64,000 nucleotides of DNA. It comes from Octopus sinensis. Taxonomy: Eukaryota. Both the position numbers and the translations under genes were made by a program. Where the stretch lies: positions 434,001-498,000 of the forward strand of contig NC_043025.1 in the NCBI RefSeq assembly GCF_006345805.1, read 5' to 3'. The notes beneath the pieces are model-generated. The model saw nothing but the letters and a program-made list of their open reading frames with translations, had not been told where the DNA came from and searched no databases. Position 1 is the stretch's first letter. Each line of letters starts with the position of its first letter. Of the stretch, positions 8,701 through 58,159 are shown piece by piece.

Positions 8701-8789
8701 ACCAGAATCATACGCACCGTTATTTAAATGAACAGCTGAGCTTCTGTAAAGTTTCACGTTCAATATTTGTTGTTGGTTTCTGAATTTGT

Positions 8790-14533: not shown

Positions 14534-14554
14534 CTCTTCGCTCTTTTAAAAAAA

Positions 14555-17240: not shown

Positions 17241-17263
17241 CATGGGTTGGTAAGCAAGCTACT

Positions 17264-19436
17264 TTATTTCATTATGGTTTGCCATAAAGGCATTACAAAG
17301 AGAGGCTTGCGGGCTGGACACATACATTGATAAGGTGAATGATGAAACAAGGATGATATTGATGGGAGAAGACAAAAAACGTCCGCCGATTTTCTGCTTC
17401 TCTAAAACATCATTCTTCTTTTTTTCCAACTGAAAAAAACAAAACAAAATGCGGTATTGAACCTCTCACGGCAGTTTTTTACAATTATTGGACTTAATAG
17501 TCCATTACAAATAATAACATGCAATAACATACAATAAAATATTCAATATACAATCAACACTAGTCCATTTACAAATGAGGCGCTGAGCCTCTTGCACTTT
17601 ATAATACTGAGGCTTTTCAACCTCTTGTCAATTTTCCACCTCATCATCGCTTGTGTCCATGTACTCCACCATCACCCATGCTTGCTTTAAAATCAAGGTG
17701 GGCTCCGAGTTGGCGTCACCCGGCCACGAGCGATATTTCTCTTTTAGTCCCTCCAGCCTATGTAACACGCGCAACGTTATCACTTCCACAGCTATCTGCG
17801 GAGGCCATTCGGGATTCCGTGTGAAGGCCAAAGGTACTCCCTCGTAGTATTCTGCCACCACCTTTTTCACCTCTCCACCTCTATAAAAGAAGACCAACTG
17901 TTCTTCGTCCTCCGGGTCCGAGGGGGTCAATTCTACCGTTGGCGGCACAATTTCCGCTCCGCCGGTGAACAACCGATGAGGCTCGGGGACACTCCGGCGC
18001 CTTGTTTCCGACTGCCGGCAATGTCCCGTTTCTCCTCCTCTTCCTCTTTTTTCTTCTCGACTGGGGGAGGGTGCGTCTCTTCCGTGACCGAGAGATTCGC
18101 CGCCCCTCCCTCATCCTCAGGATCCTTCGGTGAGCACCCATTATTGCTCACCTTCTCCCTTTTGCGGCTCTTCTTTGAGGAGTCCTTCGTCTCCTCGACC
18201 GCCTTCATTCCCTCCTCTGCAGAGGTCTCCATCAACCGCTCCAGGACTTTGCTTTGCCCTTGAGGAGAGTTCTTATTTATATGGCCAGGCTCCAGGTACA
18301 GATGACAATTGGCGGGGGGGGCGACCCTGAAGCATTACCGGATACCTAGACCCGGCCATTCTCAAAAAGTCTCGAAATACCAGACTTTCGGCTGACTGGG
18401 TCCATAGGGTCAAAACAATTTTTGACTCCCCCGAGTAAGCCGCAGGCAGAATATTTACGTTGAGGAGCTTGGTGCTACTGCCACCCAGACCCCGGCGGAT
18501 AGCATCTCCTATCCCTTCGTGCTCAACTCCGGGTGGCAAGCCGCATACCCAAGTTCTCGTCAACTTCTTCCCACAATAAGTAGGAAGAAACAAAAATTCA
18601 TTGCCCTCCAGGGCTGGCTCGCAAATTCACAAGCCACTTCTGGGGATTCAAACAGCAACCACATGGTTGCGTATTTGACCCCCGAGAGATAAACTTAATC
18701 GCTGGCTTAAATTCTGCCAGCTCTCTTTCGATTATATCCTTTATGAAAACGGCAATGGCGTCGAGGGTCCTAGAGTAGGTCCTCAAAACCACCGTCTTAC
18801 TTTCAAGTTCTTTTAACCATCTTTTGGGTGGCGTAATTTCTCACTCCACCAACTTTCAATTGTTATTTGCCATGTTTTTTTAAAAATTCCAAAAAAACAG
18901 TTTTAAAATACAAAATAATTAAGAAAAAGGAAGGAAGAGAAAAAAGTTCAAACAAAAAGGAAGGAGAAAAAATAACAGCTCAATAAAGAGTTTTTTTTTA
19001 ATAAAAGATAGATGAAGAGAGAGCAACAGTTCAAAATACAGCAAAGGCCACTCGGCACTGCAGGCCAAAATTTTAACGCAAATGTTAAACAGTTAAAAAA
19101 ATCATTCCAATTTGACAGGAACAATATTGTTGAAATTTTTCTAAAAATTCCCACGGAGTTATTCCTGGACAAATACTATTTTTAAGCGCCCACCAAAACA
19201 AAAATTTTCACAATTAAGTGAAAAAAAAAAATTCACTCAGGCCCAGGTAGACTAGAATCCAGTGACGATTTCTTGTGTGTAAAAAATAGTTGCGGCAAAC
19301 AACAGGTCCTCACTGGACACAAAAAATCTTACCTAACAGCTGAGTTTCAAAAATCTTCCATTTAAGACAGCTTCAAAAACACATCTTACAGCTTCAGTAT
19401 CAAACACAACTCTGATTCGCACATGCGCAATGAAGA
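17264..19436 (-). mobile_element. ORF1-only non-LTR retroelement, copy B (diverged relative of A)
   Basis: ORF from ATG 18873 to stop 17628 with frameshifts. It has TWVCGLPPGVEHEGI, a degenerate knuckle CHLYLEPGHINKNS and the same 3' UTR architecture ending GAAATA. Confidence 0.8.
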
Positions 19437-19465
19437 AAGCAAGCTACTTACCACACCGCCACTCC
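19437..19465 (-). mobile_element. Displaced 5' head of the SINE at 14555-14943
   Basis: AAGCAAGCTACTTACCACACCGCCACTCC matches 58994-59021 of the intact SINE copy. Confidence 0.9.
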
Positions 19466-19691
19466 ATCTAACATACGTTGCAATTGTGAATGATTTTTCG
19501 AAAGCTTATGAGCAACTTGGGAATGTCTCTAAAAGTTCATTTCGTGCACTGTCATCTTGACTTTCTTTCCTCCCAGTATGAGTGATGTAAGCGATGAGCG
19601 GGGTGAACGATTTCATCACAAAATCAAAGAGCTAGAAAGGCGCTACAGTGGCAGACTTACAGCAAACATGCTGACGGACTACTACTGGTTT
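19466..19691 (+). pseudogene. Chapaev3 transposase C-terminal part, running in frame into the satellite
   Basis: VAIVNDFSKAYEQLG..MSLKVHFVHCHLDF..FPPSMSDVSDERGERFHHKIKELERRYSGRLTANMLTDYYW matches the family motif MSLKxHFLHSHLDFFP..VSDEHGERFHQDI..ME.RYQG....MLADYCW. Confidence 0.92.
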
Positions 19692-19842
19692 AAAGAACTA
19701 GAAAGGCGCTACAGTGGCAGGCTTACAGCAAACATGCTGACGGACTACTGCTGGTTTAAAGAACTAGAAAGGCGCTACAGTGGCAGATTTACAGCAAACA
19801 TGCTGACGGACTACTGCTGGTTTAAAGAACTAGAAAGGCGCT

Positions 19843-21509
19843 CGTAAAATTCGGTAAAAAAAGATCAAAAAGAATTGTTGTTGTTGTTGTGGTAATTTTG
19901 AACGGCGTTAAAGCGGTTTCGCGTTCCACTGGTTCTGCGCGTAACACTTTTTCTGTTTTGACGGCCGTTTTGGCCTGTCAGGCGGGAGGAGATGGATGAC
20001 CACTCCCTAGTGGAGGAGTCGGAGGAAGAATGGATATTTGAGAGCTTGTCGGAGACATCGAACTCTGAAGACGAGCAAATCGGTGATGTAAATAATGTGG
20101 AGACAAAAAACAGGAAAACGTACGCAGGAGTTGCAAAAAAGAAGACGGAACAGGAAAAAGAAATAAACCTAGAAAAATTGCCAGGTTTCCAGAGGTATAT
20201 GAGGAAGGACAGCGGCGAGGTGGAACTGGAACCACCACCAAAGAGAAAGGAATGGTACAATAAGAGGACCATAATTTACAGGGTGTTCGTGAACGAAAGA
20301 AAGAAAATAGAGATCGTAAACATGGAATGGATAGAGGAGGCCCTGAGAAGATCGGAGGAGGAAATCATTTTTCTGACTCGAGGATCGAAGTACGGTACTG
20401 TAGTGGTGCATTTTAAAAGTGAGACTGCAGCGAGGAGGATGGCGGTGAAGGCGGTGAAGTCAGAAAGGGTAACACTTTTACCTATGTACTTGAATAGAAG
20501 GATCACACGAGTAAGGGTGGAGGGAGTGCCACCAAACGTGGAGGCTGAGTGGATTGTGCGGCTGTGATCAGCGGCCACGAGGAGAAGTAGATATTCTCCA
20601 TGCCTCGGTCAAGACCGAGGGCTGGAGAGGCGTAATAGTGGAGCTGAACGTGCAGGCGGAGAGCGAGGTACTGGTGGACCTGGCGGAGAGCATTAAATTG
20701 GGAGACGTGATTATGAGAGTGTGGGTGGAGGGCAGAGCTCCACGTTGTTACAAGTGTGGCCTGAGGGGCCACATAAGAGCCTTCTGCCCTCCCCCACCAA
20801 GAGAAAAGGAAATCGTTGAGGAAACTCCAAAAGAGGAGGCCCCAAAAGAAGAAGAAATTAAAGAGAAGCAGACGGAAAGGGAAATGACAGAGGAGGAGGA
20901 CATGCAAAAAGAGTGTGAGGAGGGCAGAAAGAAGAGAAAAGGAAAGAAAAGGAAAAACTGTGCGAAGCCCCAACCCAGCCCAATACCACCCACACCCTTG
21001 GAGACCCATCCTGCCCCCGCAAACAGCAATCCCACCCACTCCCCGCCTACAAGAAAAACGAAAACAGACACACAGAACATACAAAAGCCCCAGTCCTACT
21101 TTTTATGTGTTGTAGGGAAGGGGGATACTGAGAACGCAAGAAGGCTTTTTGAAGACGATGTATGGCAGGAGTATGAGGACGGAAGCTATGCGGTATTCGA
21201 TTTTGAACTCATGGGCTCTTTGATGAGCAAGTGCAATGAACTACGTATAAATTGTTTATCAGCATATATGAAGGATGATATGATAGAGAGATATGAGAGA
21301 GAAATGAAAGGTGAGGTGAAAAACTTTGGAATCGTGATAGGAAACGGAAAGGTAAGTGATGCTGGCGGAGGGGGCCGTTAGCATCGCTTTCATGTTATCA
21401 TTTTTTCATTTTAACATTCATTTAATCATAATTTTAATCGCATTGTTTTATGTCCCCCATGTTTTGTAATGTTCCCTCTTCGTGGCCCCTAGTGGGTAAT
21501 AAAGAAATA
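19843..21509 (+). mobile_element. ORF1-only non-LTR retroelement, copy C, inserted in the satellite
   Basis: Sharp boundaries inside the repeat. Ends ...GCCCCTAGTGGGTAATAAAGAAATA. Flanked by an apparent 35-bp duplication (19808-19842 and 21510-21544). Confidence 0.88.
19992..21381 (+). pseudogene. Tx1/L1-like ORF1 (gag-like, CCHC zinc knuckle), one frameshift near 20560
   Basis: TYAGVAK, RVRVEGVPPNVEAEWI and VWVEGRAPRCYKCGLRGHIRAFCP motifs. About 460 aa if the frameshift is repaired. Confidence 0.82.
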
Positions 21510-24500
21510 GGACTACTGCTGGTTTAAAGAACTAGAAAGGCGCTATAGTGGCAGACTTACAGCAAACATGCTGACAGACTACTGCTGGTTTAAAGAACTA
21601 GAAAGGCGCTACAGTGGTAGGCTTACAGCAAACATGCTGACGGACTACTGCTGGTTTAAAGAGCTAGAAAGGCGCTACAGTGGCAGGCTTACAGCAAACA
21701 TGCTGACGGACTACTGCTGGTTTAAAGAGCTAGAAAGACGCTACAGTGGCAGGCTTACAGCAAACATGCTGACGGACTACTGCTGGTTTAAAGAACTAGA
21801 AAGGCGCTATAGTGGCAGATTACAGCAAACATGCTGACGGACTACTGCTGGTTTAAAGAAAGTAGAAAGGCGCTACAATGGCAGGCTTACAGCAAACATG
21901 CTGACGGACTACTGCTGGTTTAAAGAACTAGAAAGGCGCTACAGTGGCAGGCTTACAGCAAACATGCTGCCGGACTACTGCTGGTTTAAAGAACTAGAAA
22001 GGCGCCACAGTGGCAGATTTACAGCAAACATGCTGACGGACTACTGCTGGTTTAAAGAACTAGAAAGGCGCGACTGTGGCAGGCTTACAGCAAACATGCT
22101 GACGAACTACTGCTGGTTTAAAGACCTAGAAAGGCGCTACAGTGGCAGGCTTACAGCAAACATGCTGACGGACTACTGCTGGTTTAAAGAAAGTAGAAAG
22201 GCGCTACAGTGGTAGGCTTACAGCAAACATGCTGACGGACTACTGCTGGTTTAAAGAGCTAGAAAGGCGCTACAGTGGCAGGCTTACAGCAAACATGCTG
22301 ACGAACTACTGCTGGTTTAAAGAGCTAGAAAGGCGCTACAGTGGCAGGCTTACAGCAAACATGCTGACGGACTACTGCTGGTTTAAAGAACTAGAAAGGC
22401 GCTATAGTGGCAGATTACAGCAAACATGCTGACGGACTACTGCTGGTTTAAAGAAAGTAGAAAGGCGCTACAATGGCAGGCTTACAGCAAACATGCTGAC
22501 GGACTACTGCTGGTTTAAAGAACTAGAAAGGCGCTACAGTGGAAGGCTTACAGCAAACATGCTGACGGACTACTGCTGGTTTAATGAGCTAGAAAGGCGC
22601 TACATTGGCAGGCTTACAGCAAACATGCTGACGGACTACTGCTTGTTTAAAGAACTAGAAAGGCGCGACAGTGGCAGACTTACAGCAAACATGCTGACGG
22701 ACTACTGCTGGTTCAAAGAACTAGAAAGGCGCTACAGTGGCAGACTTACAGCAAACATGCTGACGGACTACTGCTGGTTTAAAGAACTAGAAAGGCGCGA
22801 CAGTGGCAGGCTTACAGCAAACATGCTGACGGACTACTGCTGGTTTAAAGAACTAGAAAGGAGCTACAGTGGCAGACTTACAGCAAACATGCTGACGGAC
22901 TACTGCTGGTTTAAAGAACTAGAACGGCGCTACAGTGGCAGACTTACAGCAAACATGCTGACGGACTACTGCTGGTTTAAAGAACTAGAAAGGCGCGACA
23001 GTGGCAGGCTTACAGCAAACATGCTGACGAACTACTGCTGGTTTAAAGAACTAAAAAGGCGCTACAGTGGCAGGCTTACAGCAAACATGCTGACGGACTA
23101 CTGCTGGTTTAAAGAAAGTAGGAAGGCGCGACAGTGACAGATTAACAGCAAACATGCTGACGGACTACTGCTGGTTTAAAGAACTAGAATGGCACTACAG
23201 TGGCAGGCGTACAGCAAACATGCTGACGGACTACTGCTGGTTTAAAGAACTAGAAAGGAGCTACAGTGGCAGGCTTACAGCAAACATGCTGACGGACTAC
23301 TGCTGGTTTAAAGAACTAGAAAGGCGCTACAGTGGCAGGCTTACAGCAAACATGCTGACGGACTACTGCTGGTATAAAGAACTCGAAAGGCGCTACAGTG
23401 GCAGACTTACAGAAAACATGCTGACGGACTACTGCTGGTTTAAAGAACTAGAAAGGCGCTACAGTGGCAGACTTACAGAAAACATGCTGACGGACTACTG
23501 CTGGTTTAAAGAACTTGAAAGGCGCTACAGTGGCAGGCTTACAGCAAACATGCTGACGGACTACTGCTGGTTTAAAGAACTAGAAAGGCGCTACAGTTGC
23601 AGACTTACAGAAAACATGCTGACGGACTACTGCTGGTTTAAAGAACTAGAAAGGCGCCACAGTGGCAGACTTACAGAAAACATGCTGACGGACTACTGCT
23701 GGTTTAAAGAACTAGAAAGGCGCTACAGTGGCAGACTTACAGAAAACATGCTGACGGACTACTGCTGGTTTAAAGAACTAGAAAGGCGCTACAGTGGCAG
23801 ACTTACAGAAAACATGCTGACGGACTACTGCTGGTTTAAAGAACTTGAAAGGCGCTACAGTGGCAGACTTACAGAAAACATGCTGACGGACTACTGCTGG
23901 TTTAAAGAACTTGAAAGGCGCTACAGTGGCAGACTTACAGCAAACATGCTGACGGACTACTGCTGGTTTAAAGAACTAGAAAGGCGCTACAGTGGCAGAC
24001 TTACAGAAAACATGCTGACGGACTACTGCTGGTTTAAAGAACTTGAAAGGCGCTACAGTGGCAGACTTACAGCAAACATGCTGACGGACTACTGCTGGTT
24101 TAAAGAACTTGAAAGGCGCAACAGTGGCAGACTTACAGAAAACATGCTGACGGACTACTGCTGGTTTAAAGAACTTGAAAGGCGCTACAGTGGCAGACTT
24201 ACAGCAAACATGCTGACGGACTACTGCTGGTTTAAAGAACTAGAAGGGCGCTACAGTGGCAGGCTTCCAGCAAACATGCTGACGAACTACTGCTCGTTTA
24301 AAGAACTAGAAAGGCTCCACAGTGGCAGGCTTACAGCAAACATGCTGAGGGACTACTGCTGGTGTAAAGAACTAGAAACGCGCTACAGTGGAAGGCTTTC
24401 AGCAAACATGCTGATGGACAACTGCTGGTTTCAAGAACTAGAAAGGCGCTACAGTGGCAGATATACATCAAACATGCTGACGGACTACTGCTGGTTTAAA

Positions 24501-27500
24501 GAACTTGAAAGGCGCTACAGTGGCAGACTTACAGAAAACATGCTGACGGACTACTGCTGGTTTAAAGAACTTGAAAGGCGCTACAGTGGCAGACTTACAG
24601 CAAACATGCTGACGGACTACTGCTGGTTTAAAGAGCTAGAAAGGCGCTACAGTGGCAGACTTACTGCAAACATGCTGACGGACTACTGCTGGTTTAAAGA
24701 GCAAGAAAGGCGCTACAGTGGCAGACTTACAGCAAACATGCTGACAGACTACTGCTGGTTTAAAGAACTTGAAAGGCGCTACAGTGGCAGACTTACAGCA
24801 AACATGCTGACAGACTACTGCTGGTTTAAAGAACTAGAAAGGCGCTACAGTGGCAGGCTTACAGCAAACATGCTGATGGACTACTGCTGGTTTAAAGAAC
24901 TAGAAAGGCGCTACAGTGGCAGACTTACAGCAAACATGCTGACGGACTACTGCTTGTTTAAAGAGCTAGAAAGGCGCTACAGTGGCAGACTTACAGCAAA
25001 CATGCTGACGGACTACTGCTGGTTGAAAGAGCTAGAAAGGCGCTACGGTGGCAGACTTACAGCAAACATGCTGACGGACTACTGCTGGTTTACAGAACTA
25101 GAAAGGCGCTACAGTGGCAGGCTTACAGCAAACATGCTGACGGACTACTGCTGGTTTAAAGAACTAGAAAGGCGCTACAGTGGCAGACTTACCGCAAACA
25201 TGCTGACGGACTACTGGTTGTTTAAAGAACTAGAAAGGCTCTACAGTGGCAGACTTACAGCAAACATGCTGACGGACTACTGCTGATTTCAAGAACTAGA
25301 AAGGCGCTACAGTGGCAGACTTACGCAAACATGCTGACGGACTACTGCTGGTTTAAAGAGCTAGAAAGGCGCTACAGTGGCAGACTTACAGCAAGCATGC
25401 TGACGGACTACTGCTGGTTTAAAGAGCTAGAAAGGGGCTACAGTGGCAGGCTTACAGCAAACATGCTGACGGACTACTGCTGGTTTAAAGAACTAGAAAG
25501 GCGCTATAGTGGCAGACTTACAGCAAACATGCTGACGGACTACTGCTGGTTTAAAGAAAGTAGAAAGGCGCTACAGTGGCAGACTTACAGCAAACATGCT
25601 GACGGACTACTGCTGGTTTAAAGAACTAGAAAGGCGCTACAGTGGCAGGCTTACAGCAAACATGCTGACGGACTACTGCTGGTTAAAAGAGCTAGAAAGG
25701 CGCTACAGTGGCAGGCTTACAGCAAATATGCTGACGGACGACTGCTGGTTTAAAGAACTAGAAAGGCGCTACAGTGGCAGGCTTACAGCAAACATGCTGA
25801 CGGACTACTGCTGGTTTAAAGAACTAGAAAGGCGCAACAGTGGTTGGTTTACAGCAAACATGCAGACGGACTACTGCTGGTTTAAAGAACTAGAAAGGCG
25901 CTACAGTGGCAGACTTACCGCAAACATGCTGACGGACTACTGCTGGTTTGAAGAGCTAGAAAGGCGTTACAGTGGCAGGCTTACAGCAACCATGCTGACG
26001 GACTACTGCTGGTTTAAAGAACTAGAAAGGCGCTATAGTGGCAGGCTTACAGCAAACATGCTGACGGACTACTGCTGGTTTAAAGAACGACAAAGGCGCT
26101 ATAGTGGCAGGCTTACAGCAAACATGCTGACGGACTACTGCTGGTTTAAAGAGCTAGAATGGCGCTACTGTGGCAGGCTTACAGCAAACATGCTGACGGA
26201 CTACTGCTGGTTTAAAGAGCTAGAAAGGCGCTACAGTGGCAGGCTTACAGCAAACATGCTGACGGACTACTGCTGGTCTAAAGATCTAGAAAGGCGCTAC
26301 AGTGGCAGGCTTACAGCAAACATGCTGACGGACTACTGCTGGTTTAAAGAACTAGAAAGGCGCTATAGTGGCAGATTACGACAAACATGCTGATGGACTA
26401 CTGCTGGTTTAAAGAAAGTAGAAAGGCGCTACAGTGGCAGACTTACAGCAAACATGCTGACGGACTACTGCTGGTTTAAAGAGCAAGAAAGGCGTTACAT
26501 TGGCAGGCTTACAGCAAACATGCTGACGGACAACTGCTGGTTTAAAGAACTAGAAAGGCGCTACAGTGGCAGGCTTACAGCAAACATGATGACGGACTAC
26601 TGCTGGTTTAAAGAACTTGAAAGGCGCTACAGTGGCAGACTTACAGCAAACATGCTGACGGACAACTGCTGGTTTAAAGAACTAGAAGGGCGCTACAGTG
26701 GCAGGCTTACAGCAAACATGATGACGGACTACTGCTGGTTTAAAGAACTTGAAAGGCGCTACAGTGGCAGACTTACAGCAAACATGCTGACGGACAACTG
26801 CTGGTTTAAAGAACTAGAAAGGCGCTACAGTGGCAGGCTTACAGCAAACATGATGACGGACTACTGCTGGTTTAAAGAACTAGAAAGGCTCTCCAGTGGC
26901 AGACTTGCAACAAACATGCTGACGGACTACTGCTGGTTAAAAGAAATAGAAAGGCGCTACAGTGGCAGACTTACAGCAAACATGCTGACGGACAACTGCT
27001 GGTTTAAAGAACTTGAAAGGCGCTACAGTGGCAGACTTACAGCAAACATGCTGACGGACTACTGCTGGTTAAAAGAACTAGAAAGGCGCTACAGTGGCAG
27101 GCTTACAGCAAACATGATGACGGACTACTGCTGGTTTAAAGAACTAGAAAGGCGCTACAGTGGCAGACTTACAGCAAACATGCTGACGGACAACTGCTGG
27201 TTTAAAGAACTAGAAGGGCGCTACAGTGGCAGGCTTACAGCAAACATGATGACGGACTACTGCTGGTTTAAAGAACTAGAAAGGCGCTACAGTGGCAGAC
27301 TTACAGCAAACATGCTGACGGACTACTGCTGGTTTAAAGAACTAGAAAGGCGCTACAGTGGCAGCTTACAGCAAACATGCTGACGGACTACTGCTGGTTT
27401 AAAGAACTAGAAAGGCGCTACAGTGGCAGACTTACAGCAAACATGCTGACGGACTACTGCTGGTTTAAAGAACTAGAAAGGCGCTACAGTGGCAGGCTTA

Positions 27501-30500
27501 CAGCAAACATGCTGACGGACTACTGCTGGTTTAAAGAACTTGAAAGGCGCTACAGTGGCAGACTTACAGCAAACATGCTGACGGACAACTGCTGGTTTAA
27601 AGAACTAGAAAGGCGCTACAGTGGCAGGCTTACAGCAAACATGATGACGGACTACTGCTGGTTTAAAGAACTTGAAAGGCGCTACAGTGGCAGACTTACA
27701 GCAAACATGCTGACGGACAACTGCTGGTTTAAAGAACTATAAAGGCGCTACAGTGGCAGGCTTACAGCAAACATGATGACGGACTACTGCTGGTTTAAAG
27801 AACTAGAAAGGCTCTCCAGTGGCAGACTTGCAACAAACATGCTGACGGACTACTGCTGGTTTAAAGTACTAGAAAGGCGCTACAGTGGCAGGCTTACAGC
27901 AAACATGCTGACGGACTACTGCTGGTTAAAAGAAATAGAAAGGCGCTACAGTGGCAGGCTTACAGCAAACATGCTGACGGACGACTGCTGGTTAAAAGAA
28001 CTAGAAAGGCTCTCCAGTGGCAGGCTTACAGCAAACATGCTGACGGACTACTGCTGATTTAAAGAAATAGAAAGGCTCTCCAGTGGCAGACTTGCAACAA
28101 ACATGCTGACGGACTACTGCTGGTTTAAAGAGCTAGAAAGACGCTACAGTGGCAGGCTTACAGCAAACATGCTGACGGACTACTGCTGGTTAAAAGAGCT
28201 AGAAAGACGCTACAGTGGCAGGCTTTCAGCAAACATGCTGACGGACTACTGCTGGTTTAAAGAACTAGAAAGGCGCTACAGTGGCAGGCTTACAGCAAAC
28301 ATGCTGACGGACTACTGCTGGTTTAAAGAAATAGAAAGGCGCTATAGTGGCAGGCTTACAGCAAACATGCTGACGGACTACTGCTGGTTTAAAGAACTAG
28401 AAAGGCGCTACAGTGGCAGACTTACAGCAAACATGCTGACGGACTACTGCTGGTTTAAAGAAATAGAAAGGCGCTATAGTGGCAGGCTTACAGCAAACAT
28501 GCTGACGGACTACTGCTGGTTTAAAGAGCTAGAAAGGCGCTGCAGTGGCAGACTTACCGCAAACATGCTGACGGACTACTGCTGGTTTAAAGAGCTAGAA
28601 AGACGCTACAGTGGCAGGCTTACAGCAAACATGCTGACGGACTACTGCTGGTTTAAAGAACTAGAAAGGCGCTACAGTGGCAGACTTACAGCAAACATGC
28701 TGACGGACTACTGCTGGTTTAAAGAACTAGAAAGGCGCTACAGTGGCAGGCTTACAGCAAACATGCTGACGGACTACTGCTGGTTTAAAGAACTAGAAAG
28801 GCGCTACAGTGGCAGGCTTACAGCAAACATGCTGACGGACTACTGCTGGTTTAAAGAAATAGAAAGGCGCTATAGTGGCAGGCTTACAGCAAACATGCTG
28901 ACGGACTACTGCTGGTTTAAAGAGCTAGAAAGACGCTACAGCGGCAGGCTTACAGCAAACATGCTGACGGACTACTGCTGGTTTAAAGAAATAGAATGGC
29001 GCTACAGTGGCAGACTTACCGCAAACATGCTGACGGACTACTGCTGGTTTAAAGAACTAGAAAGGCGCTACAGTGGCAGACTTACCGCAAACATGCTGAC
29101 GGACTACTGCTGGTTTAAAGAACTAGAAAGGCGCTACAGTGGCAGACTTACAGCAAACATGCTGACGGACTACTGCTGGTTTAAAGAGCTAGAAAGGCGC
29201 TACAGTGGCAGGCTTACCGCAAACATGCTGACGGACTACTGCTGGTTTAAAGAAAGTAGAAAGGCGCTATAGTGGCAGGCTTACAGCAAACATGCTGACG
29301 GACTACTGCTGGTTTAAAGAAAGTAGAAAGGCTCTCCAGTGGCAGGCTTACAGCAAACATGCTGACGGACTACTGCTGGTTTAAAGAAAGTAGAAAGGCT
29401 CTCCAGTGGCAGGCTTACAGCAAACATGCTGACGGACTACTGCTGGTTTAAAGAGCTAGAAAGGCGCTACAGTGGCAGGTTTACAGCAAACATGCTGACG
29501 GACTACTGCTGGTTTAAAGAACTAGGAAGGCGCTACAGTGGCAGGCTTACCGCAAACATGCTGACGGACTACTGCTGGTTTAAAGAACTAGAAAGGCGCG
29601 ACAGTGGCAGACTTACCGCAAACATGCTGACGGACTACTGCTGGTTTAAAGAAAGTAGAAAGGCGCTATAGTGGCAGGCTTACAGCAAACATGCTGACGG
29701 ACTACTGCTGGTTTAAAGAAAGTAGAAAGGCTCTCCAGTGGCAGGCTTACAGCAAACATGCTGACGGTCTACTGCTGGTTTAAAGAGCTAGAAAGGCGCT
29801 ACAGTGGCAGGCTTACAGCAAACATGCTGACGGACTACTGCTGGTTTAAAGAACTAGAACTGCTGGTTTAAAGCTTAAAGAGCTAGAAAGGCGCTACAGT
29901 GGCAGGCTTACAGCAAACATGCTGACGGACTACTGCTGGTTTAAAGAACTAGAAAGGCTCTGCAGTGGCAGGCTTACAGCAAACATGCTGACGGACTACT
30001 GCTGGTTTAAAGAACTAGAAAGGCTCTCCAGTGGCAGGCTTTCACAGCAAACATGCTGACGGACTACTGCTGGTTAAAGAACTAGAAAGGCGCTCAGTGG
30101 CAGGCTTACAGCAAACATGCTGACGGACTACTGCTGGTTTAAAGAACTAGAAAGGCGCTACAGTGGCAGGCTTACAGCAAACATGCTGACGGACTACTGC
30201 TGGTTTAAAGAGCAAGAAAGGCGCTACAGTGGCAGGCTTACAGCAAACATGCTGACGGACTACTGCTGGTTTAAAGAACTAGAAAGGCGCTACAGTGGCA
30301 GGCTTACAGCAAACATGCTGACGGACTACTGCTGGTTTAAAGAACTAGAAAGGCGCTACAGTGGCAGGCTTACAGCAAACATGCTGACGGACTACTGCTG
30401 GTTTAAAGAACTAGAAAGGCGCTACAGTGGCAGGCTTACAGCAAACATGCTGACGGACTACTGCTGGTTTAAAGAACTAGAAAGGCGCTACAGTGGCAGG

Positions 30501-48500: not shown

Positions 48501-51500
48501 GCTACAGTGGCAGACTTACAGCAAACATGCTGACGGACTACTGCTGTTAAAAGAGCTAGAAAGACGCTACAGTGGTCAGGCTTACAGCAAACATGCTGAC
48601 GGACTACTGACTAGGATTTTTAAAGAAATAGAAAGGCGCTATAGTGGCAATTTACAGCACACGGCTGACGGACTACTGCTGGTTTAAAGAGCTAGAAAGC
48701 GCTACAGTGGCAGACTTACAGCAAACATGCTGACGGACTACTGCTGGTTAAAAGAGCTAGAAAGACGCTACAGTGGCAGGCTTAAAGCAAACATGCTGAC
48801 GGACTACTGCTGGTTTAAAAGACATAGAAAGGCGCTATAGTGGCAGATTACAGCAAACATGCTGACGGACTACTGCTGGTTTAAAGAGCTAGAAAGGCGC
48901 TAACAGTTGAAGGCTTACAGCAAACATGCTGACGGACTACTGCTGGTTAAAGAGCTAGAAGGCGCTACAGTGGCAGGCTTTCAGCAAACATGCTGACGGA
49001 CTACTGCTGGTTTAAAGAACTAGAAAGGCGCTACAGTGGCAGTCTTACAGCAAACATGCTGACGGACTACTGCTGGTTTAAAGAGCTAGAAAGGCGCTAC
49101 AGTGGCCGGCTTACAGCAAACATGGTGACGGAATACTGCTGGTTTAAAGAACTAGAAAGGCGCTACAGTGACAGACGTACAGCAAACATGCTGACGGACT
49201 ACTGCTGGTTAAAAGAACTAGAAAGGCGCTACAGTGACAGACGTACAGCAAACATGCTGACGGACTACTGCTGGTTTAAAGAGCTAGAAAGGCGCTATAG
49301 TGGCAGACTTACAGCAAACATGCTGACGGACTACTGCTGGTTAAAAGAATTAGAAAGGCGCTACAGTGGCAGACTTACAGCAAACATGCTGACGGACTAC
49401 TGCTGGTTTAAAGAACTAGAAAGGCGCTACTGTGGCAGACTTACAGCAAACAGGCTGACGGACTACTGCTGGTTTAAAGAACTAGAAAGGCGCTACAGTG
49501 ACAGACGTACAGCAAACATGCTGACGGACTACTGCTGGTTAAAAGAACTAGAAAGGCGCTACAGTGACAGACGTACAGCAAACATGCTGACGGACTACTG
49601 CTGGTTTAAAGAGCTAGAAAGGCGCTATAGTGGCAGACTTACAGCAAACATGCTGACGGACTACTGCTGGTTAAAAGAATTAGAAAGGCGCTATAGTGGC
49701 AGACTTACAGCAAACATGCTGACGGACTACTGCTGGTTTAAAGAACTAGAAAGGCGCTACAGTGGCAGACTTACAGCAAACATGCTGACGGACTACTGCT
49801 GGTTTAAAGAGCTAGAAAGGCGCTACAGTGGCAGACTTACAGCAAACATGCTGATGGATTACTGCTGGTTTAAAGAGATAGAAAGGCGCTATATGGCAGA
49901 CTTACAGCAAACATGCTGACGGACTACTGCTGGTTTAAAGAGCTAGAAAGGCGCTACAGTGGCAGACTTACACCAAACATGCTGACGGACTACTGCTGGT
50001 TTAAAGAACTAGAAAGGCGCTGCAGTGGCAGGCTTACAGCAAACATGCTGACGGACTACTGCTGGTTTAAAGAACTAGAAAGACGCTGCAGTGGCAGGCT
50101 TACAGCAAACATGCTGACGGACTACTGCTGGTTTAAAGAATAGAAAGGCGCTACAGTGGCAGGCTTACAGCAAACATGATGACGGACTACTGCTGGTTTA
50201 AAGAACTAGAACGACGCTGCAGTGGCAGGCTTACAGCAAACATGCTGACGGACTACTGCTGGTTTAAAGAACTAGAAAGGCGCTACAGTGGCAGGCTTAC
50301 AGCAAACATGATGACGGACTACTGCTGGTTTAAAGAACTAGAACGACGCTGCAGTGGCAGGCTTACAGCAAACATGCTGACGGACTACTGCTGGTTTAAA
50401 GAACTAGAAAGGCGCTACAGTGGCAGGCTTACAGCAAACATGCTGACGGACTACTGCTGGTTAAAAGAACTAGAAAGACGCTGCAGTGGCAGGCTTACAG
50501 CAAACATGCTGACGGACTACTGCTGGTTAAAAGAACTAGAAAGACGCTGCAGTGGCAGGCTTACAGCAAACATGCTGACGGACTACTGCTGGTTTAAAGA
50601 ACTAGAAAGGCGCTACAGTGGCAGGCTTACAGCAAACATGCTGACGGACTACTGCTGGTTTAAAGAAAGAAAGGCGCTACAGTGGCAGGCTTACAGCAAA
50701 CATGCTGACGGACTACTGCTGGTTAAAGAACTAGAACGACGCTGCAGTGGCAGGCTTACAGCAAACATGCTGACGGACTACTGCTGGTTAAAAGAACTAG
50801 AAAGACGCTGCAGTGGCAGGCTTACAGCAAACATGCTGACGGACTACTGCTGGTTTAAAGAACTAGAAAGACGCTGCAGGGCAGGCTTACAGCAAACATG
50901 CTGACGGACTACTGCTGGTTTAAAGAACTAGAAAGGCGCTGCAGTGGCAGGCTTACAGCAAACATGCTGACGGACTACTGCTGGTTTAAAGAACTAGAAA
51001 GGCGCTGCAGTGGCAGACTTACAGCAAACATGCTGACGGACTACTGCTGGTTTAATAGAGCTAGAAAGACGCTGCAGTGGCAGGCTTACAGCAAACATGC
51101 TGACGGACTACTGCTGGTTTAAAGAACTAGAAAGGCGCTGCAGTGGCAGACTTACAGCAACATGCTGACGGACTACTGCTGGTTAAAGAACTAGAAAGAC
51201 GCTGCAGTGGCAGGCTTACAGCAAACATGCTGACGGACTACTGCTGGTTTAAAGAGCTAGAAAGGCGCTGCAGTGGCAGGCTTACAGCAAACATGCTGAC
51301 GGACTACTGCTGGTTTAAAGAACTAGAAAGACGCTGCAGTGGCAGGCTTACAGCAAACATGCTGACGGACTACTGCTGGTTTAAAGAACTAGAAAGACGC
51401 TGCAGTGGCAGGCTTACAGCAAACATGCTGACGGACTACTGCTGGTTTAAAGAACTAGAAAGACGCTGCAGTGGCAGGCTTACAGCAAACATGCTGACGG

Positions 51501-54500
51501 ACTACTGCTGGTTAAAAGAACTAGAAAGGCGCTGCAGTGGCAGGCTTACAGCAAACATGCTGACGGACTACTGCTGGTTTAAAGAACTAGAAAGACGCTG
51601 CAGTGGCAGGCTTACAGCAAACATGCTGACGGACTACTGCTGGTTTAAAGAACTAGAAAGGCGCTACAGTGGCAGGCTTACAGCAAACATGCTGACGGAC
51701 TACTGCTGGTTTAAAGAAATAGAAAGGCGCTATAGTGGCAGATTACAGCAAACATGCTGACGGACTACTGCTGGTTTAAAGAACTAGAAAGACGCTGCAG
51801 TGGCAGGCTTACAGCAAACATGCTGACGGACTACTGCTGGTTTAAAGAACTAGAAAGACGCTGCAGTGGCAGGCTTACAGCAAACATGCTGACGGACTAC
51901 TGCTGGTTTAAAGAACTAGAAAGGCGCTGCAGTGGCAGGCTTACAGCAAACATGCTGACGGACTACTGCTGGTTTAAAGAACTAGAAAGACGCTGCAGTG
52001 GCAGGCTTACAGCAAACATGCTGACGGACTACTGCTGGTTTAAAGAACTAGAAAGGCGCTACAGTGGCAGGCTTACAGCAAACATGCTGACGGACTACTG
52101 CTGGTTTAAAGAACTAGAAAGGCGCTGCAGTGGCAGGCTTACAGCAAACATGCTGACGGACTACTGCTGGTTAAAAGAACTAGAAAGACGCTGCAGTGGC
52201 AGGCTTACAGCAAACATGCTGACGGACTACTGCTGGTTTAAAGAACTAGAAAGGCGCTGCAGTGGCAGGCTTACAGCAAACATGCTGACGGACTACTGCT
52301 GGTTTAAAGAACTAGAAAGGCGCTGCAGTGGCAGGCTTACAGCAAACATGCTGACGGACTACTAATGGTTTAAAGAACTAGAAAGACGCTGCAGTGGCAG
52401 GCTTACAGCAAACATGCTGACGGACTACTGCTGGTTTAAAGAACTAGAAAGACGCTGCAGTGGCAGGCTTACAGCAAACATGCTGACGGACTACTGCTGG
52501 TTTAAAGAACTAGAAAGACGCTGCAGTGGCAGGCTTACAGCAAACATGCTGACGGACTACTGCTGGTTTAAAGAACTAGAAAGGCGCTGCAGTGGCAGGC
52601 TTACAGCAAACATGCTGACGGACTACTGCTGGTTAAAAGAACTAGAAAGACGCTGCAGTGGCAGGCTTACAGCAAACATGCTGACGGACTACTGCTGGTT
52701 TCAAGAACTAGAAAGGCGCTGCAGTGGCAGGCTTACAGCAAACATGCTGACGGACTACTGCTGGTTTAAAGAACTAGAAAGGCGCTGCAGTGGCAGGCTT
52801 ACAGCAAACATGCTGACGGACTACTGCTGGTTTAAAGAACTAGAAAGGCGCTGCAGTGGCAGGCTTACAGTAAACATGCTGACAGACTACTGCTGGTTAA
52901 AAGAACTAGAAAGACGCTGCAGTGGCAGGCTTACAGCAAACATGCTGACGGACTACTGCTGGTTTAAAGAGCGAGAAAGGCGTTACAGTGGCAGACTTAC
53001 AGCAAACATGCTGACGGACTACTGCTGGTTAAAAGAACTAGAAAGGCGCTGCAGTGGCAGGCTTACAGCAAACATGCTGACGGACTACTGCTGGTTTAAA
53101 GAACTAGAAAGGCGCTGCAGTGGCAGGCTTACAGTAAACATGCTGACAGACTACTGCTGGTTAAAAGAACTAGAAAGACGCTGCAGTGGCAGGCTTACAG
53201 CAAACATGCTGACGGACTACTGCTGGTTTAAAGAGCGAGAAAGGCGTTACAGTGGCAGACTTACAGCAAACATGCTGACGGACTACTGCTGGTTAAAAGA
53301 ACTAGAAAGACGCTGCAGTGGCAGGCTTACAGCAAACATGCTGACGGACTACTGCTGGTTTAAAGAACTACAAAGGCGTTACAGTGGCAGACTTACAGCA
53401 AACATGCTGACGGACTACTGCTGGTTAAAAGAACTAGAAAGACGCTGCAGTGGCAGGCTTACAGCAAACATGCTGACGGACTACTGCTGGTTTAAAGAGC
53501 GAGAAAGGCGTTACAGTGGCAGACTTACAGCAAACATGCTGACGGACTACTGCTGGTTTAAAGAACTAGAAAGACGCTGCAGTGGCAGGCTTACAGCAAA
53601 CATGCTGACGGACTACTGCTGCTTTAAAGAACTAGAAAGGCGTTACAGTGGCAGACTTACAGCAAACATGCTGACGGACTACTGCTGGTTAAAGAACTAG
53701 AAAGACGCTGCAGTGGCAGGCTTACAGCAAACATGCTGACGGACTACTGCTGGTTTAAAGAGCGAGAAAGAAGGGTTACAGTGGCAGACTTACAGCAAAC
53801 ATGCTGATGACGGACTACTGCTGGTTTAAAGAACTAGAAAGAGCGCTGCAGTGACAGGCTTACAGCAAACATGCTGACGGACTACTGCTGGTTTAAAGAG
53901 CTAGAAAGGCGCTACAGTGGCAGACTTACAGCAAACATGCTGACGGACTACTGCTGGTTTAAAGAACTAGAAAGGCGCTGCAGTGGCAGACTTACCGCAA
54001 ACATGCTGACGGACTACTGCTGGTTTAAAGAACTAGAAAGGCGCTGCAGTGGCAGGCTTACAGCAAACATGTTGACGGACTACTGCTGGTTTAAAGAACT
54101 AGAAAGACGCTGCAGTGGCAGGCTTACAGCAAACATGCTGACGGACTACTGCTGGTTAAAAGAACTAGAAAGACGCTGCAGTGGCAGGCTTACAGCAAAC
54201 ATGCTGACGGACTACTGCTGGTTTAAAGAACTAGAAAGGCGCTGCAGTGGCAGGCTTACAGCAAACATGATGACGGACTACTGCTGGTTAAAAGAACTAG
54301 AAAGACGCTGCAGTGGCAGGCTTACAGCAAACATGCTGACGGACTACTGCTGGTTTAAAGAGCTAGAAAGGCGCTACAGTGGCAGGCTTACAGCAAACAT
54401 GCTGACGGACTACTGCTGGTTAAAGAACTAGAAAGACGCTGCAGTGGCAGGCTTACAGCAAACATGCTGACGGACTACTGCTGGTTTAAGAACTAGAAAG

Positions 54501-57500
54501 GCGCTGCAGTGGCAGGCTTACAGCAAACATGCTGACGGACTACTGCTGGTTTAAAAGAATAGAAAGGCGCTGCAGTGGCAGGCTTATAGCAAACATGCTG
54601 ACGGACTACTGCTGGTTTAAAGAACTAGTAGAAAGACGCTGCAGTGGCAGGCTTACAGCAAACATGCTGACGGACTACTGCTGGTTTAAAGAACTAGAAA
54701 GACGCTGCAGTGGCAGGCTTACAGCAAACATGCTGACGGACTACTGCTGGTTTAAAGAACTAGAAAGCGCTGCAGTGGCAGGCTTACAGCAAACATGCTG
54801 ACGGACTCCTGCTGGTTTAAAGAACTAGAAAGACGCTGCAGTGGCAGGCTTACAGCAAACATGCTGACGGACTACTGCTGGTTTAAAGAACTAGAAAGAC
54901 GCTGCAGTGGCAGGCTTACAGCAAACATGCTGACGGACTACTGCTGGTTTAAAGAACTAGAAAGGCGCTGCAGTCGCAGGCTTACAGCAAACATGCTGAC
55001 GGACTACTGCTGGTTTAAAGAACTAGAAAGACGCTGCAGTGGCAGGCTTACAGCAAACATGCTGACGGACTACTGCTGGTTTAAAGAACTAGAAAGGCGC
55101 TGCAGTGGCAGGCTTACAGCAAACATGCTGACGGACTACTGCTGGTTTAAAGAACTAGAAAGACGCTGCAGTGGCAGGCTTACAGCAAAAATGCTGACGG
55201 ACTACTGCTGGTTTAAAGAGCGAGAAAGACGTTACAGTGGCAGACTTACAGTAAACATGCTGACGGACTACTGCTGGTAAAAAGAACTAGAAAGACGCTG
55301 CAGTGGCAGGCTTACAGCAAACATGCTGACGGACTACTGCTGGTTAAAAGAACTAGAAAGACGCTGCAGTGGCAGGCTTACAGCAAACATGCTGACGGAC
55401 TACTGCTGGTTTAAAGAACTAGAAAGGCGCTGCAGTGGCAGGCTTACAGCAAACATGCTGACGGACTACTGCTGGTTTAAAGAACTAGAAAGGCGCTGCA
55501 GTGGCAGGCTTACAGCAAACATGCTGACGGACTACTGCTGGTTTAAAGAACTAGAAAGGCGCTGCAGTGGCAGGCTTACAGCAAACATGCTGACGGACTA
55601 CTACTGGTTTAAAGAACTAGAAAGACGCTGCAGTGGCAGGCTTACAGCAAACATGCTGACGGACTACTGCTGGTTTAAAGAGCGAGAAAGGCGTTACAGT
55701 TGCAGACTTACAGTAAACATGCTGACGGACTACTGCTGGTTTAAAGAACTAGAAAGGCGCTGCAGTGGCAGGCTTACAGCAAACATGCTGACGGACTACT
55801 GCTGGTTTAAAGAGCGAGAAAGGCGTTACAGTGGCAGACTTACAGTAAACATGCTGACGGACTACTGCTGGTTAAAAGAACTAGAAAGACGCTGCAGTGG
55901 CAGGCTTACAGCAAACATGCTGACGGACTACTACTGGTTTAAAGAACTAGAAAGACGCTGCAGTGGCAGGCTTACAGCAAACATGCTGACGGACTACTGC
56001 TGGTTTAAAAACTAGAAAGGCGCTGCAGTGGCAGGCTTACAGCAAACATGCTGACGGACTACTGCTGGTTTAAAGAGCGAGAAAGGCGTTACAGTGGCAG
56101 ACTTACAGTAAACATGCTGACGGACTACTGCTGGTTAAAGACTAGAAAGACGCTGCAGTGGCAGGCTTACAGCAAACATGCTGACGGACTACTGCTGGTT
56201 AAAAGAACTAGAAAGACGCTGCAGTGGCAGGCTTACAGCAAACATGCTGACGGACTACTGCTGGTTTAAAGAACTAGAAAGGCGCTGCAGTGGCAGGCTT
56301 ACAGCAAACATGCTGACGGACTACTGCTGGTTAAAGAACTAGAAAGGCGCTGCAGTGGCAGGCTTACAGCAAACATGCTGACGGACTACTGCTGGTTTAA
56401 AGAACTAGAAAGGCGCTGCAGTGGCAGGCTTACAGCAAACATGCTGACGGACTACTGCTGGTTTAAAGAACTAGAAAGGCGCTGCAGTGGCAGGCTTACA
56501 GCAAACATGCTGACGGACTACTGCTGGTTTAAAGAACTAGAAAGACGCTGCAGTGGCAGGCTTACAGCAAACATGCTGACGGACTACTGCTGGTTAAAAG
56601 AACTAGAAAGACGCTGCAGTGGCAGGCTTACAGCAAACATGCTGACGGACTACTGCTGGTTTAAAGAACTCGAAAGACGCTGCAGTGGCAGGCTTACAGT
56701 AAACATGCTGACGGACTACTGCTGGTTTAAAGAACTAGAAAGGCGCTGCAGTGGCAGGCTTACAGCAAACATGCTGACGGACTACTACTGGTTTAAAGAA
56801 CTAGAAAGACGCTGCAGTGGCAGGCTTACAGCAAACATGCTGACGGACTACTGCTGGTTTAAAGAACTAGAAAGGCGCTGCAGTGGCAGGCTTACAGCAA
56901 ACATGCTGACGGACTACTGCTGGTTTAAAGAGCGAGAAAGGCGTTACAGTTGCAGACTTACATTAAACATGCTGACGGACTACTGCTGGTTTAAAGAACT
57001 AGAAAGGCGCTGCAGTGGCAGGCTTACAGCAAACATGCTGACGGACTACTGCTGGTTTAAAGAGCGAGAAAGGCGTTACAGTGGCAGACTTACAGTAAAC
57101 ATGCTGACGGACTACTGCTGGTTTAAAGAACTAGAAAGGCGCTGCAGTGGCAGGCTTACAGCAATCATGCTGACGGACTACTGCTGGTTTAAAGAGCGAG
57201 AAAGGCGTTACAGTGGCAGACTTACAGTAAACATGCTGACGGACTACTGCTGGTTTAAAGAACTAGAAAGGCGCTGCAGTGGCAGGATTACAGCAAACAT
57301 GCTGACGGACTACTGCTGGTTTAAAGAGCGAGAAAGGCGTTACAGTGGCAGACTTACAGTAAACATGCTGACGGACTACTGCTGGTTTAAAGAACTAGAA
57401 AGGCGCTGCAGTGGCAGGCTTACAGCAAACATGCTGACGGACTACTGCTGGTTTAAAGAGCGAGAAAGGCGTTACAGTGGCAGACTTACAGTAAACATGC

Positions 57501-57964
57501 TGACGGACTACTGCTGGTTTAAAGAGCGAGAAAGGCGTTACAGTGGCAGGCTTACAGCAAACATGCTGACGGACTACTGCTGGTTTAAAGAGCGAGAAAG
57601 GCGTTACAGTGGCAGACTTACAGTAAACATGCTGACGGACTACTGCTGGTTTAAAGAGCGAGAAAGGCGTTACAGTGGCAGGCTTACAGCAAACATGCTG
57701 ACGGACTACTGCTGGTTTAAAGAGCGAGAAAGGCGTTACAGTGGCAGACTTACAGCAAACACTGCTGACGGACTACTGCTGGTTTAAAGAGCGAGAAAGG
57801 CGTTACAGTGGCAGGCTTACAGCAAACATGCTGACGGACTACTGCTGGTTTAAAGAGCGAGAAAGGCGTTACAGTGGCAGACTTACAGTAAACATGCTGA
57901 CGGACTACTGCTGGTTTAAAGAACTAGAAAGGCGCTGCAGTGGCAGGCTTACAGCAATACTTAT

Positions 57965-58121
57965 TTACGTGTATATATACACGTGTTAGCAGATATATAT
58001 ATATCTATACACACACACACACACAGATATATATATATATATGTGGTGTGTGAGTCTGTATATATGTATGAATGTGTGTATGTATGCATGTATCTATATA
58101 TCTAACTATCTATCAATCTAT

Positions 58122-58159
<38 letters not shown>

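What the first reader, a model, noticed from the sequence alone, without database searches (positions are those of the whole stretch)
19557..57957. A 37-kb satellite born in situ from 22 codons of a Chapaev3 transposase
Seen: the unique transposase reading SDERGERFHHKI continues without a break into about 550 copies of KELERRYSGRLTANMLTDYCWF, so parent element and satellite are still joined and in frame. Known: this peptide is the conserved Chapaev3 segment right after the motif holding the presumed third catalytic acidic residue. TE-derived satellites more often come from UTRs, LTRs or MITE interiors than from a catalytic-domain coding segment. Inference: this is the birthplace of a satellite. 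It could be a heterochromatic or centromere-like seed, a small-RNA source against the Chapaev3 family, or a repeat-protein locus.
Basis: partly seen in the sequence, partly recalled or inferred. Interest (0 to 1): 0.9.

Follow-up and report, generated by a model that had tools for sequence, protein, structure and literature searches.

The report
Satellite array grown from dead transposase
A 66-base piece of a broken jumping-gene enzyme is repeated head-to-tail about 556 times at one spot of an animal genome, likely a functionless satellite that grew where its parent lies, a clean animal example of a process already described in plants.

Summary
The array is real but not unbroken or in frame. 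About 556 head-to-tail 66-bp units (3.3 at 19626-19842, 553 at 21510-57957) are split by a young 1,667-bp ORF1-only retroelement. The reading frame from the transposase stops after 89 codons, and 121 of 555 units shift frame. The unit is codons 520-541 of a Chapaev3-like transposase (RAG1/Transib fold), seven codons after the invariant Glu of GERFHQ. The parent copy was already dead and interrupted by 4.9 kb of insertions. All 470 genome-wide matches to the unit-unit junction lie in this window. Four sister copies of the same 20-kb duplicated block carry one unit and continue to the transposon's right end, which the array-bearing copy has lost. Variant units cluster in local domains with no synonymous bias, and junction-bridging contigs occur in 4 of 4 public runs laid. 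Best reading: a single-locus, neutrally evolving satellite born in situ. The close precedent is Chenopodium CficCl-61-40, derived from CACTA tnp2 and attached to it. New here: an animal, Chapaev3, and un-amplified sister copies as controls. Repeat-protein reading rejected; centromere and small-RNA roles untested. Interest 0.35.

The parts
12511..12540 (+). Left target-site duplication (TTA, 12511-12513) and left terminal inverted repeat of the Chapaev3-like element (starts CACTG at 12514)
   Evidence: sister loci show the matching right end followed by TTA; hallmarks as in PMC4079192
13182..14538 (+). Dead transposase, residues 1-455 of the 560-aa relative P0001, with stops and frameshifts
   Evidence: tblastn; 82-88% identical to dispersed copies matching over 1.2 kb or more, 96% to a sister copy
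14534..19464 (.). 4.9-kb interruption of the transposase: a SINE-like repeat (about 14560-14940; label recalled) and two older ORF1/zinc-knuckle elements on the minus strand (14927-16277 and 17247-18625 are 75% alike)
   Evidence: uninterrupted copy L014 joins 14533 to 19465 within about 14 bp; shared wholly or partly by the sister loci
19465..19625 (+). Transposase tail, residues 468-519, with the invariant Glu513 codon (19605-19607) of GERFHQ, the likely third catalytic residue
   Evidence: fold match to RAG1/Transib; groups with the sister loci at 100/99 support
19626..19842 (+). First 3.3 units; unit 1 (19626-19691) is the parent's own codons 520-541
19843..21509 (+). Young ORF1-only (RRM-like plus CCHC knuckle) retroelement, 5'-truncated by about 50 bp, ORF frameshifted here, flanked by a 31-35-bp duplication of array sequence (19808-19842 = 21510-21544)
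21510..57957 (+). Main array, 553 units, in local variant domains (a 17T-20C type mainly at about 28-44 kb, a 65-bp deletion type at 44-49 kb, a 20G type at 50-57 kb, a dimer-like pattern at the right end)
57958..58400 (.). Right junction into simple-repeat-rich DNA; the transposon's last 350 bp and right inverted repeat are absent
154..19691 (+). Segmentally duplicated block (about 20 kb) shared with four other places (two on C17, C8469, C9506); similarity ends at the first unit

Best explanation
This is a single-locus array of about 556 66-bp units joined to the dead Chapaev3-like transposase from which its unit comes, and it likely arose there by one small tandem duplication and likely grew without a function by unequal exchange. 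Shown: unit identity, single locus, dead parent, single-unit sister copies, local variant domains, the retroelement inside the array. Inferred order of events: (1) a Chapaev3-like copy inserted during a family burst (dispersed copies now differ by 10% pairwise); (2) it was broken by a SINE and ORF1-type elements; (3) a 20-kb block holding it was duplicated (1-5.5% divergence); (4) in this copy alone codons 520-541 were duplicated head-to-tail by slippage or break repair, with at most a 3-bp AAA microhomology; (5) unequal crossing-over and gene conversion expanded the array and homogenised it locally (units 3.7% from the majority); (6) the transposon's 3' end was deleted or rearranged away; (7) a young ORF1-only retroelement (0.4-1.3% from its relatives) inserted into unit 4. 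The open 22-codon frame is inherited from the parent; a unit length divisible by three has a one-in-three chance.
For: Single locus: 320 of 320 exact and 470 of 470 two-mismatch junction matches in the genome lie in this window. The 34 matches to the unit outside the window are listed singly, and 7 of 7 opened hold one unit. Four sister places align over the left block up to the unit, then continue to the right inverted repeat plus TTA. The window's tail groups with them (100/99), and 12 of 555 units are identical to a sister's single 66-mer. Units within 10 positions differ at 3.98 sites against 4.82 for units 100 or more apart; 500 shuffles gave 4.69 +/- 0.016, minimum 4.64. A frameshifting 1-bp deletion is shared by 37 units, mostly in one domain. 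There is no synonymous excess once transitions and transversions are separated (8 Fisher tests, lowest p 0.11). Contigs bridging a unit-unit junction by 31 or more letters each side are listed for 4 of 4 runs laid, under three organism codes and four studies. The array lies in a gap-free stretch of about 151 kb. Precedent: PMC7320549.
Against: Simple slippage should keep both flanks, but the transposon's 3' end is missing and the array sits exactly at the end of the duplicated block, so a second event is needed. Run X1 may be the assembly's own source, the two X6 contigs have depth under 5, and the organism codes may label near-identical taxa. Counted by copy number, synonymous variants are 556 of 1,346 substitutions against 40 of 198 possible changes; two common transitions (164 and 160 copies) make up over half of them. 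A single-copy parent stretch folds better than shuffles as DNA (z -3.2 and -2.2), unexplained. Neutrality is inferred from absence of coding signal only; chromatin and small-RNA roles are untested.
Confidence: 0.7

Rival explanations
1. The array was made by the rearrangement that ended the duplicated block: break-induced replication with repeated template switching, or a 66-bp circle amplified by rolling circle and recombined back into the parent, joined the C17-type block to unrelated DNA. Still functionless, but born in one burst at a breakpoint.
For: Similarity to all four sister places ends at the unit; the transposon's 3' end has no match in 114 kb of C29 and no C29 hit among 44 listed matches; divergence from the sister 66-mer is flat along the array, 2.6-3.4 differences per unit; array divergence (3.7%) overlaps sister divergence (1.1-5.5%).
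Against: A one-step burst gives identical units; the domains and multi-unit repeats (lags 15, 20, 23) need later unequal exchange anyway. A later deletion explains the missing end as well. No un-rearranged version of the right junction was found.
Confidence: 0.15
2. The array has been co-opted as a heterochromatin or centromere seed near the chromosome end, or as a small-RNA source that silences Chapaev3 relatives in trans.
For: It lies at 0.45-0.49 Mb of a 17.06-Mb contig; the junction is present under three organism codes; the unit is 83-92% identical to dispersed family copies; an RNA dimer folds better than shuffles (z -2.6, not controlled for the repeat).
Against: One 36-kb locus on one contig, with no copies on other chromosomes in the assembly. 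The 11 family copies opened are all broken, longest frame 257 codons, so no active target was seen. No Rfam match in 12000-24000.
Confidence: 0.1
3. Assembly artefact: a few real units were expanded, or unrelated contigs were joined through the repeat.
For: 59 indel types are singletons, as read errors would be; the right flank is unrelated to the sisters' continuation; the left flank is nearly identical to C17 in places; no spanning read was seen.
Against: 308 distinct sequences among 553 units in ordered domains; no long identical blocks, longest near-identical run 9 units. Summed contig depth on the units reaches 10^4-10^5 in X1 and X2 against 30-150 for single listed flank contigs, although the tool states this is no copy number. 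Only one left and one right array end exist in the assembly.
Confidence: 0.03
4. The locus encodes a new repeat protein made of the 22-residue transposase segment.
For: 413 of 555 units are 66 bp and stop-free; open stretches reach 985 codons. The repeated peptide scores against 22-residue leucine-rich repeats.
Against: The frame from the tail ends after 89 codons; 121 of 555 units shift frame and one frameshift was amplified 37-fold; no synonymous bias. The LRR scores come from the shared period: two core leucines are Arg and Gly here, and 0 of 101 hits match the transposase profile.
Confidence: 0.02

Closest known systems
Chenopodium CficCl-61-40 satellite from CACTA tnp2B (Belyayev et al. 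2020, PMC7320549; parts 1-3 of 5 read)
   Same: A short fragment of a cut-and-paste transposase coding region is the start monomer of an attached array in the same orientation; the parent is a defective copy; Chapaev and CACTA are grouped in the CMC megafamily (PMC4079192 passage).
   Different: There: plant, about 40-bp unit, many arrays, up to 3.8% of the genome, parent 82-95% alike, recurrent formation proposed. Here: animal, Chapaev3-like, 66-bp unit, one 36-kb locus, parent 95-100% alike to the majority unit, un-amplified sister copies still present, no sign of recurrence.
TE ORF-derived satellites: chicken HinfI (CR1 ORF2), Phodopus PROsat (L1 ORF2), rye B-chromosome satellite (gag) (review PMC9659126, passages)
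   Same: Monomer derived from a TE coding region; the review also says non-coding TE parts are the more common source.
   Different: Those come from retrotransposons, and the passages read give sequence similarity rather than a preserved birthplace.
Chapaev3 transposons (Merrow, Garfield, Conan; PMC4079192, passages and one supplement file)
   Same: CAC...GTG ends, TWA target duplication, a transposase of about 550 residues with invariant acidic residues.
   Different: No direct alignment to a named Chapaev3 transposase was possible; all copies opened here are dead; no internal array of this kind appears in the passages read.
HAL1 (half-L1), ORF1-only non-autonomous non-LTR elements (PMC5753468, passage), for the 1,667-bp insert
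   Same: Encodes only an ORF1-type protein, variable 5' end, fixed 3' end, target duplications.
   Different: ORF is RRM-like plus CCHC knuckle (ZCCHC3-like), most opened copies share one 19-bp target, and the partner LINE was not identified.

Membership tests
Chapaev3 transposon (parent) | Terminal inverted repeats with 5'-CAC and GTG-3' ends | tested here: met
   Left end at 12514; right end in 4 of 4 sister places, both ends in 3 of 4; feature from PMC4079192
Chapaev3 transposon (parent) | 3-bp TWA target duplication, between A and T | tested here: met
   TTA on both sides in sister copies, A before the left one; the base after the right one is C in the sisters and T in L014, L015, L020, L021
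Chapaev3 transposon (parent) | DDE transposase related to Transib/RAG1 | tested here: met
   Model of relative P0001 (pLDDT 86.3): RAG1 E 3.6e-8, HzTransib E 3.2e-6; RAG1 Z 18.7, rmsd 3.8, 370 aligned
Chapaev3 transposon (parent) | Glu of GERFHQ is the third catalytic residue | tested here: inconclusive
   D260, D314 and E513 invariant in 28 of 28 (also E290, E523); position fits RAG1 E962 by distance from the aligned end (39 vs 46 residues); no residue-level superposition returned
Chapaev3 transposon (parent) | N-terminal Chapa zinc finger | tested here: inconclusive
   Conserved Cys/His pattern in residues 6-97; weak ZAD-domain fold hits, Z 5.6 and 4.7; no Chapa profile available
Chapaev3 transposon (parent) | Phylogenetic placement among Repbase Chapaev3 families | not testable with these tools
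   No Repbase; supplement file 1 of PMC4079192 could not be searched
Satellite DNA | Long head-to-tail array of a short monomer | tested here: met
   556 units, 36.7 kb
Satellite DNA | Concerted evolution (neighbours more alike than distant units) | tested here: met
   3.98 vs 4.82 differences; shuffles 4.69 +/- 0.016; domains
Satellite DNA | Heterochromatic state | not testable with these tools
   No chromatin data
Centromeric satellite | Present on most chromosomes in large arrays | tested here: not met
   470 of 470 junction matches at one locus of the assembly; collapsed or unassembled arrays are not excluded
Centromeric satellite | CENP-A occupancy | not testable with these tools
   No ChIP data
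Repeat-protein gene | Continuous reading frame through the repeats | tested here: not met
   Stop after 89 codons; 121 of 555 units shift frame
Repeat-protein gene | Purifying selection on the peptide | tested here: not met
   8 Fisher tests, lowest p 0.11
Leucine-rich repeat | LxxLxLxxNxL core (consensus recalled) | tested here: not met
   Alignment to LRR hit P0031 puts Arg and Gly at two core Leu positions
ORF1-only non-autonomous non-LTR element (insert) | Single ORF1-type frame, no reverse transcriptase, target duplication | tested here: met
   462-463-aa frame intact in 5 of 12 copies; weak zf-CCHC below cut-off; CCHC/RRM clusters 0.90-0.92; duplications read by eye
ORF1-only non-autonomous non-LTR element (insert) | Autonomous partner sharing the 3' end | not tested
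   Not searched

The most novel reading that the evidence does not exclude
A dead transposase's catalytic-helix codons have been turned, at one chromosome end, into a functional satellite shared by related species: a heterochromatin or centromere seed, or a piRNA source guarding against re-invasion by Chapaev3 relatives, with its un-amplified sister copies preserved as built-in controls.
Probability: 0.1. Interest if true: 0.7.

Novelty: new member of a known kind. Interest (0 to 1): 0.35.

Why it matters
Satellites rarely keep their birthplace. Here the parent, the exact monomer boundary, un-amplified sister copies of the same locus and a young insertion inside the array give an ordered history of one array before it has spread. 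That makes it a good test case for how a unique sequence becomes a satellite: whether heterochromatin follows copy number (array against single-unit sisters) and how fast length changes among individuals. It extends the transposase-to-satellite route from plant CACTA elements to an animal Chapaev3-like element. It is not a new mechanism and shows no function, so interest is moderate.

Tried and rejected
Similarity search with the unit did not list the main array, because common words are skipped; it was therefore not used to claim a single locus, and junction patterns were used instead. Pfam does not name the transposase, and a sequence profile found no solved relative (one chance hit at E 0.045); only fold search did. 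The Atlas gave unnamed eukaryotic clusters and a RAG1_RNase_H lead at 0.81. Searching 1.84 billion representatives with 4.7 units returned 101 hits; 8 of 10 scanned were LRR proteins, mostly Roco type, and none of 101 matched the transposase profile, so no other protein with this segment repeated was found. A single-sequence fold of 11 units gave pLDDT 45, which says nothing either way. Sequencing runs: no RNA holder listed. In run X2 the bin over the unit-to-insert junction had depth 3 against 9,009 in X1; a hole in contigs proves nothing, so the insert's possible polymorphism is unproven. Depth ratios differed between X2 and X3 several-fold but are not copy numbers. C13483 matches the right flank only from 60212 and does not show the pre-junction state. 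A 5-bp AGAAA repeat exactly 66 bp apart in the parents was considered as the crossover site and rejected, because the array junction carries the upstream letters before it, not the downstream ones. No strong array-wide higher-order period. Rfam, tRNA and bacterial promoter scans gave nothing of use. The tool for contigs encoding P0001 was closed, so its source context is unknown. Yuan and Wessler 2011 was not held, so CMC catalytic motifs were not checked at source. Literature searches for a prior report of this array (listings only except where stated) showed none; subscription journals and Repbase Reports are not covered. Earlier scan findings: none.
Full report
OBSERVATION. Tandem Repeats Finder gives two blocks of one 66-bp unit: 3.3 copies at 19626-19842 and 552.8 copies at 21510-57957. 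The unit reads KELERRYSGRLTANMLTDYCWF in one frame; the other five frames contain stops. The unique peptide SDERGERFHHKI runs in frame into unit 1. In the main block 423 of 553 units are 66 bp and 308 are distinct. In codon phase 121 of 555 units have a length not divisible by three and 233 of 555 share the first unit's frame. The array is real; 'unbroken and in frame' is wrong.

SETTING. The window is G000:C29:434001-498000 of a 2.72-Gb assembly; C29 is 17.06 Mb. From recalled SINE sequence I take the host to be a cephalopod mollusc; this label is recalled and untested. Assembly gaps lie at C29:375,705 and window position 93,312, so the array is inside a gap-free stretch of about 151 kb.

THE PARENT. 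The element starts at 12514 with CACTG after TTA. A 252-aa frame from a sister copy found 30 relatives of 449-661 aa among 1,423 candidates; 28 were aligned (P0027 and P0030 left out). The best, P0001 (560 aa), maps to 13182-14538 (residues 1-455, with stops and frameshifts) and to 19474-19691 (residues 468-541). The unit is residues 520-541, seven codons after Glu513 of GERFHQ; D260, E290, D314, E513 and E523 are invariant in 28 of 28. The AlphaFold model (pLDDT 86.3) matches RAG1 (E 3.6e-8) and HzTransib (E 3.2e-6) (Z 18.7, rmsd 3.8, 370 aligned). The unit covers the end of the helix holding Glu513 and the next helix. That Glu513 is catalytic is inferred from invariance and position. CAC...GTG ends and TWA duplications are the published Chapaev3 hallmarks (PMC4079192, passages and supplement file 2), and Chapaev3 is placed with Transib and RAG1 (PMC4411706, passages). 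An uninterrupted copy joins 14533 to 19465 directly, so 4.9 kb were inserted here. Ten dispersed copies differ by 10.2% on average over 45 pairs, and none of 11 copies opened has a frame over 257 codons.

SINGLE LOCUS, WITH SISTERS. The unit has 34 listed matches outside the window, each single; 7 of 7 opened hold one unit. An exact junction pattern has 320 matches in the genome and 320 in the window; with two mismatches, 470 and 470. Four places (C17 at 12.95 and 14.47 Mb, C8469, C9506) share about 20 kb of the left flank, including all or part of the transposase interruptions, at 1.1-5.5% substitution divergence over three stretches. The two small contigs are 98-99.5% identical to the C17 copies over several kb and may be second haplotypes, so at least two sisters are independent. 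All four carry one unit and continue about 350 bp to the right inverted repeat and TTA. The window's tail groups with them at 100/99 in a 14-row tree (three short rows dropped), and 12 of 555 units equal a sister's 66-mer exactly. The parent was therefore already broken before the array formed (inferred). The array-bearing copy lacks the transposon's 3' end: no match in 114 kb of C29 and no C29 hit among 44 listed matches, with 40 of 165 candidates scored.

ARRAY ANATOMY. Units differ from the majority by 3.7% and from each other by 7.1% with gaps. Variants cluster in domains. Units within 10 positions differ at 3.98 sites and units 100 or more apart at 4.82; 500 shuffles gave 4.69 +/- 0.016. 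Short multi-unit repeats (9 units at lag 15, 7 at lag 20) and a dimer-like right end fit unequal exchange. A 1-bp deletion was copied into 37 units. Variant types show no synonymous excess (8 tests, lowest p 0.11). Against this, copy-weighted counts lean synonymous (556 of 1,346), over half of it from two transitions, one matching the parent and one matching the dispersed family.

READ SUPPORT. Twenty runs hold part of the array, best share 0.45. Laid on 19000-20050, 4 of 4 runs list a contig bridging a unit-unit junction by 31 or more letters each side (X1 record 6, X2 record 15, X3 record 23, X6 records 25 and 26; 26 of 7,936 pieces shown), under organism codes A, B, B and C. Summed depth over the units is orders of magnitude above single flank contigs, which fits hundreds of copies but is stated by the tool to be no copy number. 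X1 may be the assembly's source and the X6 contigs have depth under 5.

THE INSERT. It belongs to a young family (64 matches listed, 39 of 736 candidates scored) with 7-22 mismatches to 11 other copies. Five of 12 copies keep a 462-463-aa frame resembling RRM-CCHC proteins. Other copies are about 50 bp longer at the 5' end and sit in 19- or 23-bp duplications of two recurring targets (read by eye). Here it duplicates 31-35 bp of array, with head-to-tail junctions on both sides, so it entered an array that already existed (inferred).

MECHANISM. Most likely a chance 66-bp tandem duplication in a dead copy, expanded by unequal exchange, later losing the 3' flank and gaining the insert (0.7). Birth at the rearrangement breakpoint is the main alternative (0.15). 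Co-option as chromatin seed or small-RNA source is untested (0.1). Artefact (0.03) and repeat protein (0.02) are disfavoured.

COMPARISON AND NOVELTY. PMC7320549 (parts 1-3 of 5 read) describes Chenopodium arrays whose start monomer is a 40-bp fragment of a defective CACTA tnp2, attached and in the same orientation, confirmed by PCR and nanopore reads; it cites an Arabidopsis En/Spm case too. PMC9659126 (passages) lists further ORF-derived satellites and says non-coding TE parts predominate. PMC6947457, PMC8101967 and PMC5753468 were seen as passages. Searches listed no report of this array or of a Chapaev-derived satellite; I read listings only, and Repbase and subscription journals are not covered. 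Verdict: a new member of a known kind, unusually well preserved, with no shown function. Interest 0.35.

Noticed in passing
window 19843-21509; L060-L070: A young, abundant 1.7-kb element encoding only a 462-aa RRM/CCHC ORF1-like protein. Seven of 11 other copies sit in the same 19-bp target duplication, two in a second 23-bp target, and two are part of a head-to-tail run; many copies form such runs. Looks like a target-specific non-autonomous non-LTR family; partner LINE and target repeats not identified.
   Followed up: partly
window 14927-16277 and 17247-18625, minus strand: Two older elements, 75% alike and distantly related in protein to the young insert, sit side by side in the same transposase copy, so three ORF1-type elements hit this one locus.
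   Followed up: partly
window 7600-9600: Identical (100% rounded) to C17:12,954,868-12,956,867 while neighbouring parts are 90-97% alike; parts recur many times on C17 at 21.7-22.0 Mb. Suggests gene conversion in a C17 duplication family, or a C17-derived block at the C29 end.
   Followed up: partly
window 2464-2823, minus strand: Short frame with a cysteine pattern like a PAN/apple domain exon (label recalled) inside the duplicated block; possibly part of a duplicated gene family.
   Followed up: no
window 752-1411, minus strand: 219-codon frame with a GIY-YIG-like motif (label recalled), possibly a Penelope-like endonuclease remnant.
   Followed up: no
window 21511-21819 translated: The repeated peptide scores up to E 6e-38 against 22-residue leucine-rich repeats of Roco proteins purely through its period and a few shared residues: a trap for annotation.
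   Followed up: yes
G000:C29 about 526,100-527,300 (L045): A second tandem array, 34-bp unit, 35.6 copies, runs into the assembly gap 35 kb right of the main array.
   Followed up: no
window 60240-61275: Very abundant young repeat (6,249 candidates, 94-97% identical) containing a 103-bp internal tandem repeat.
   Followed up: no
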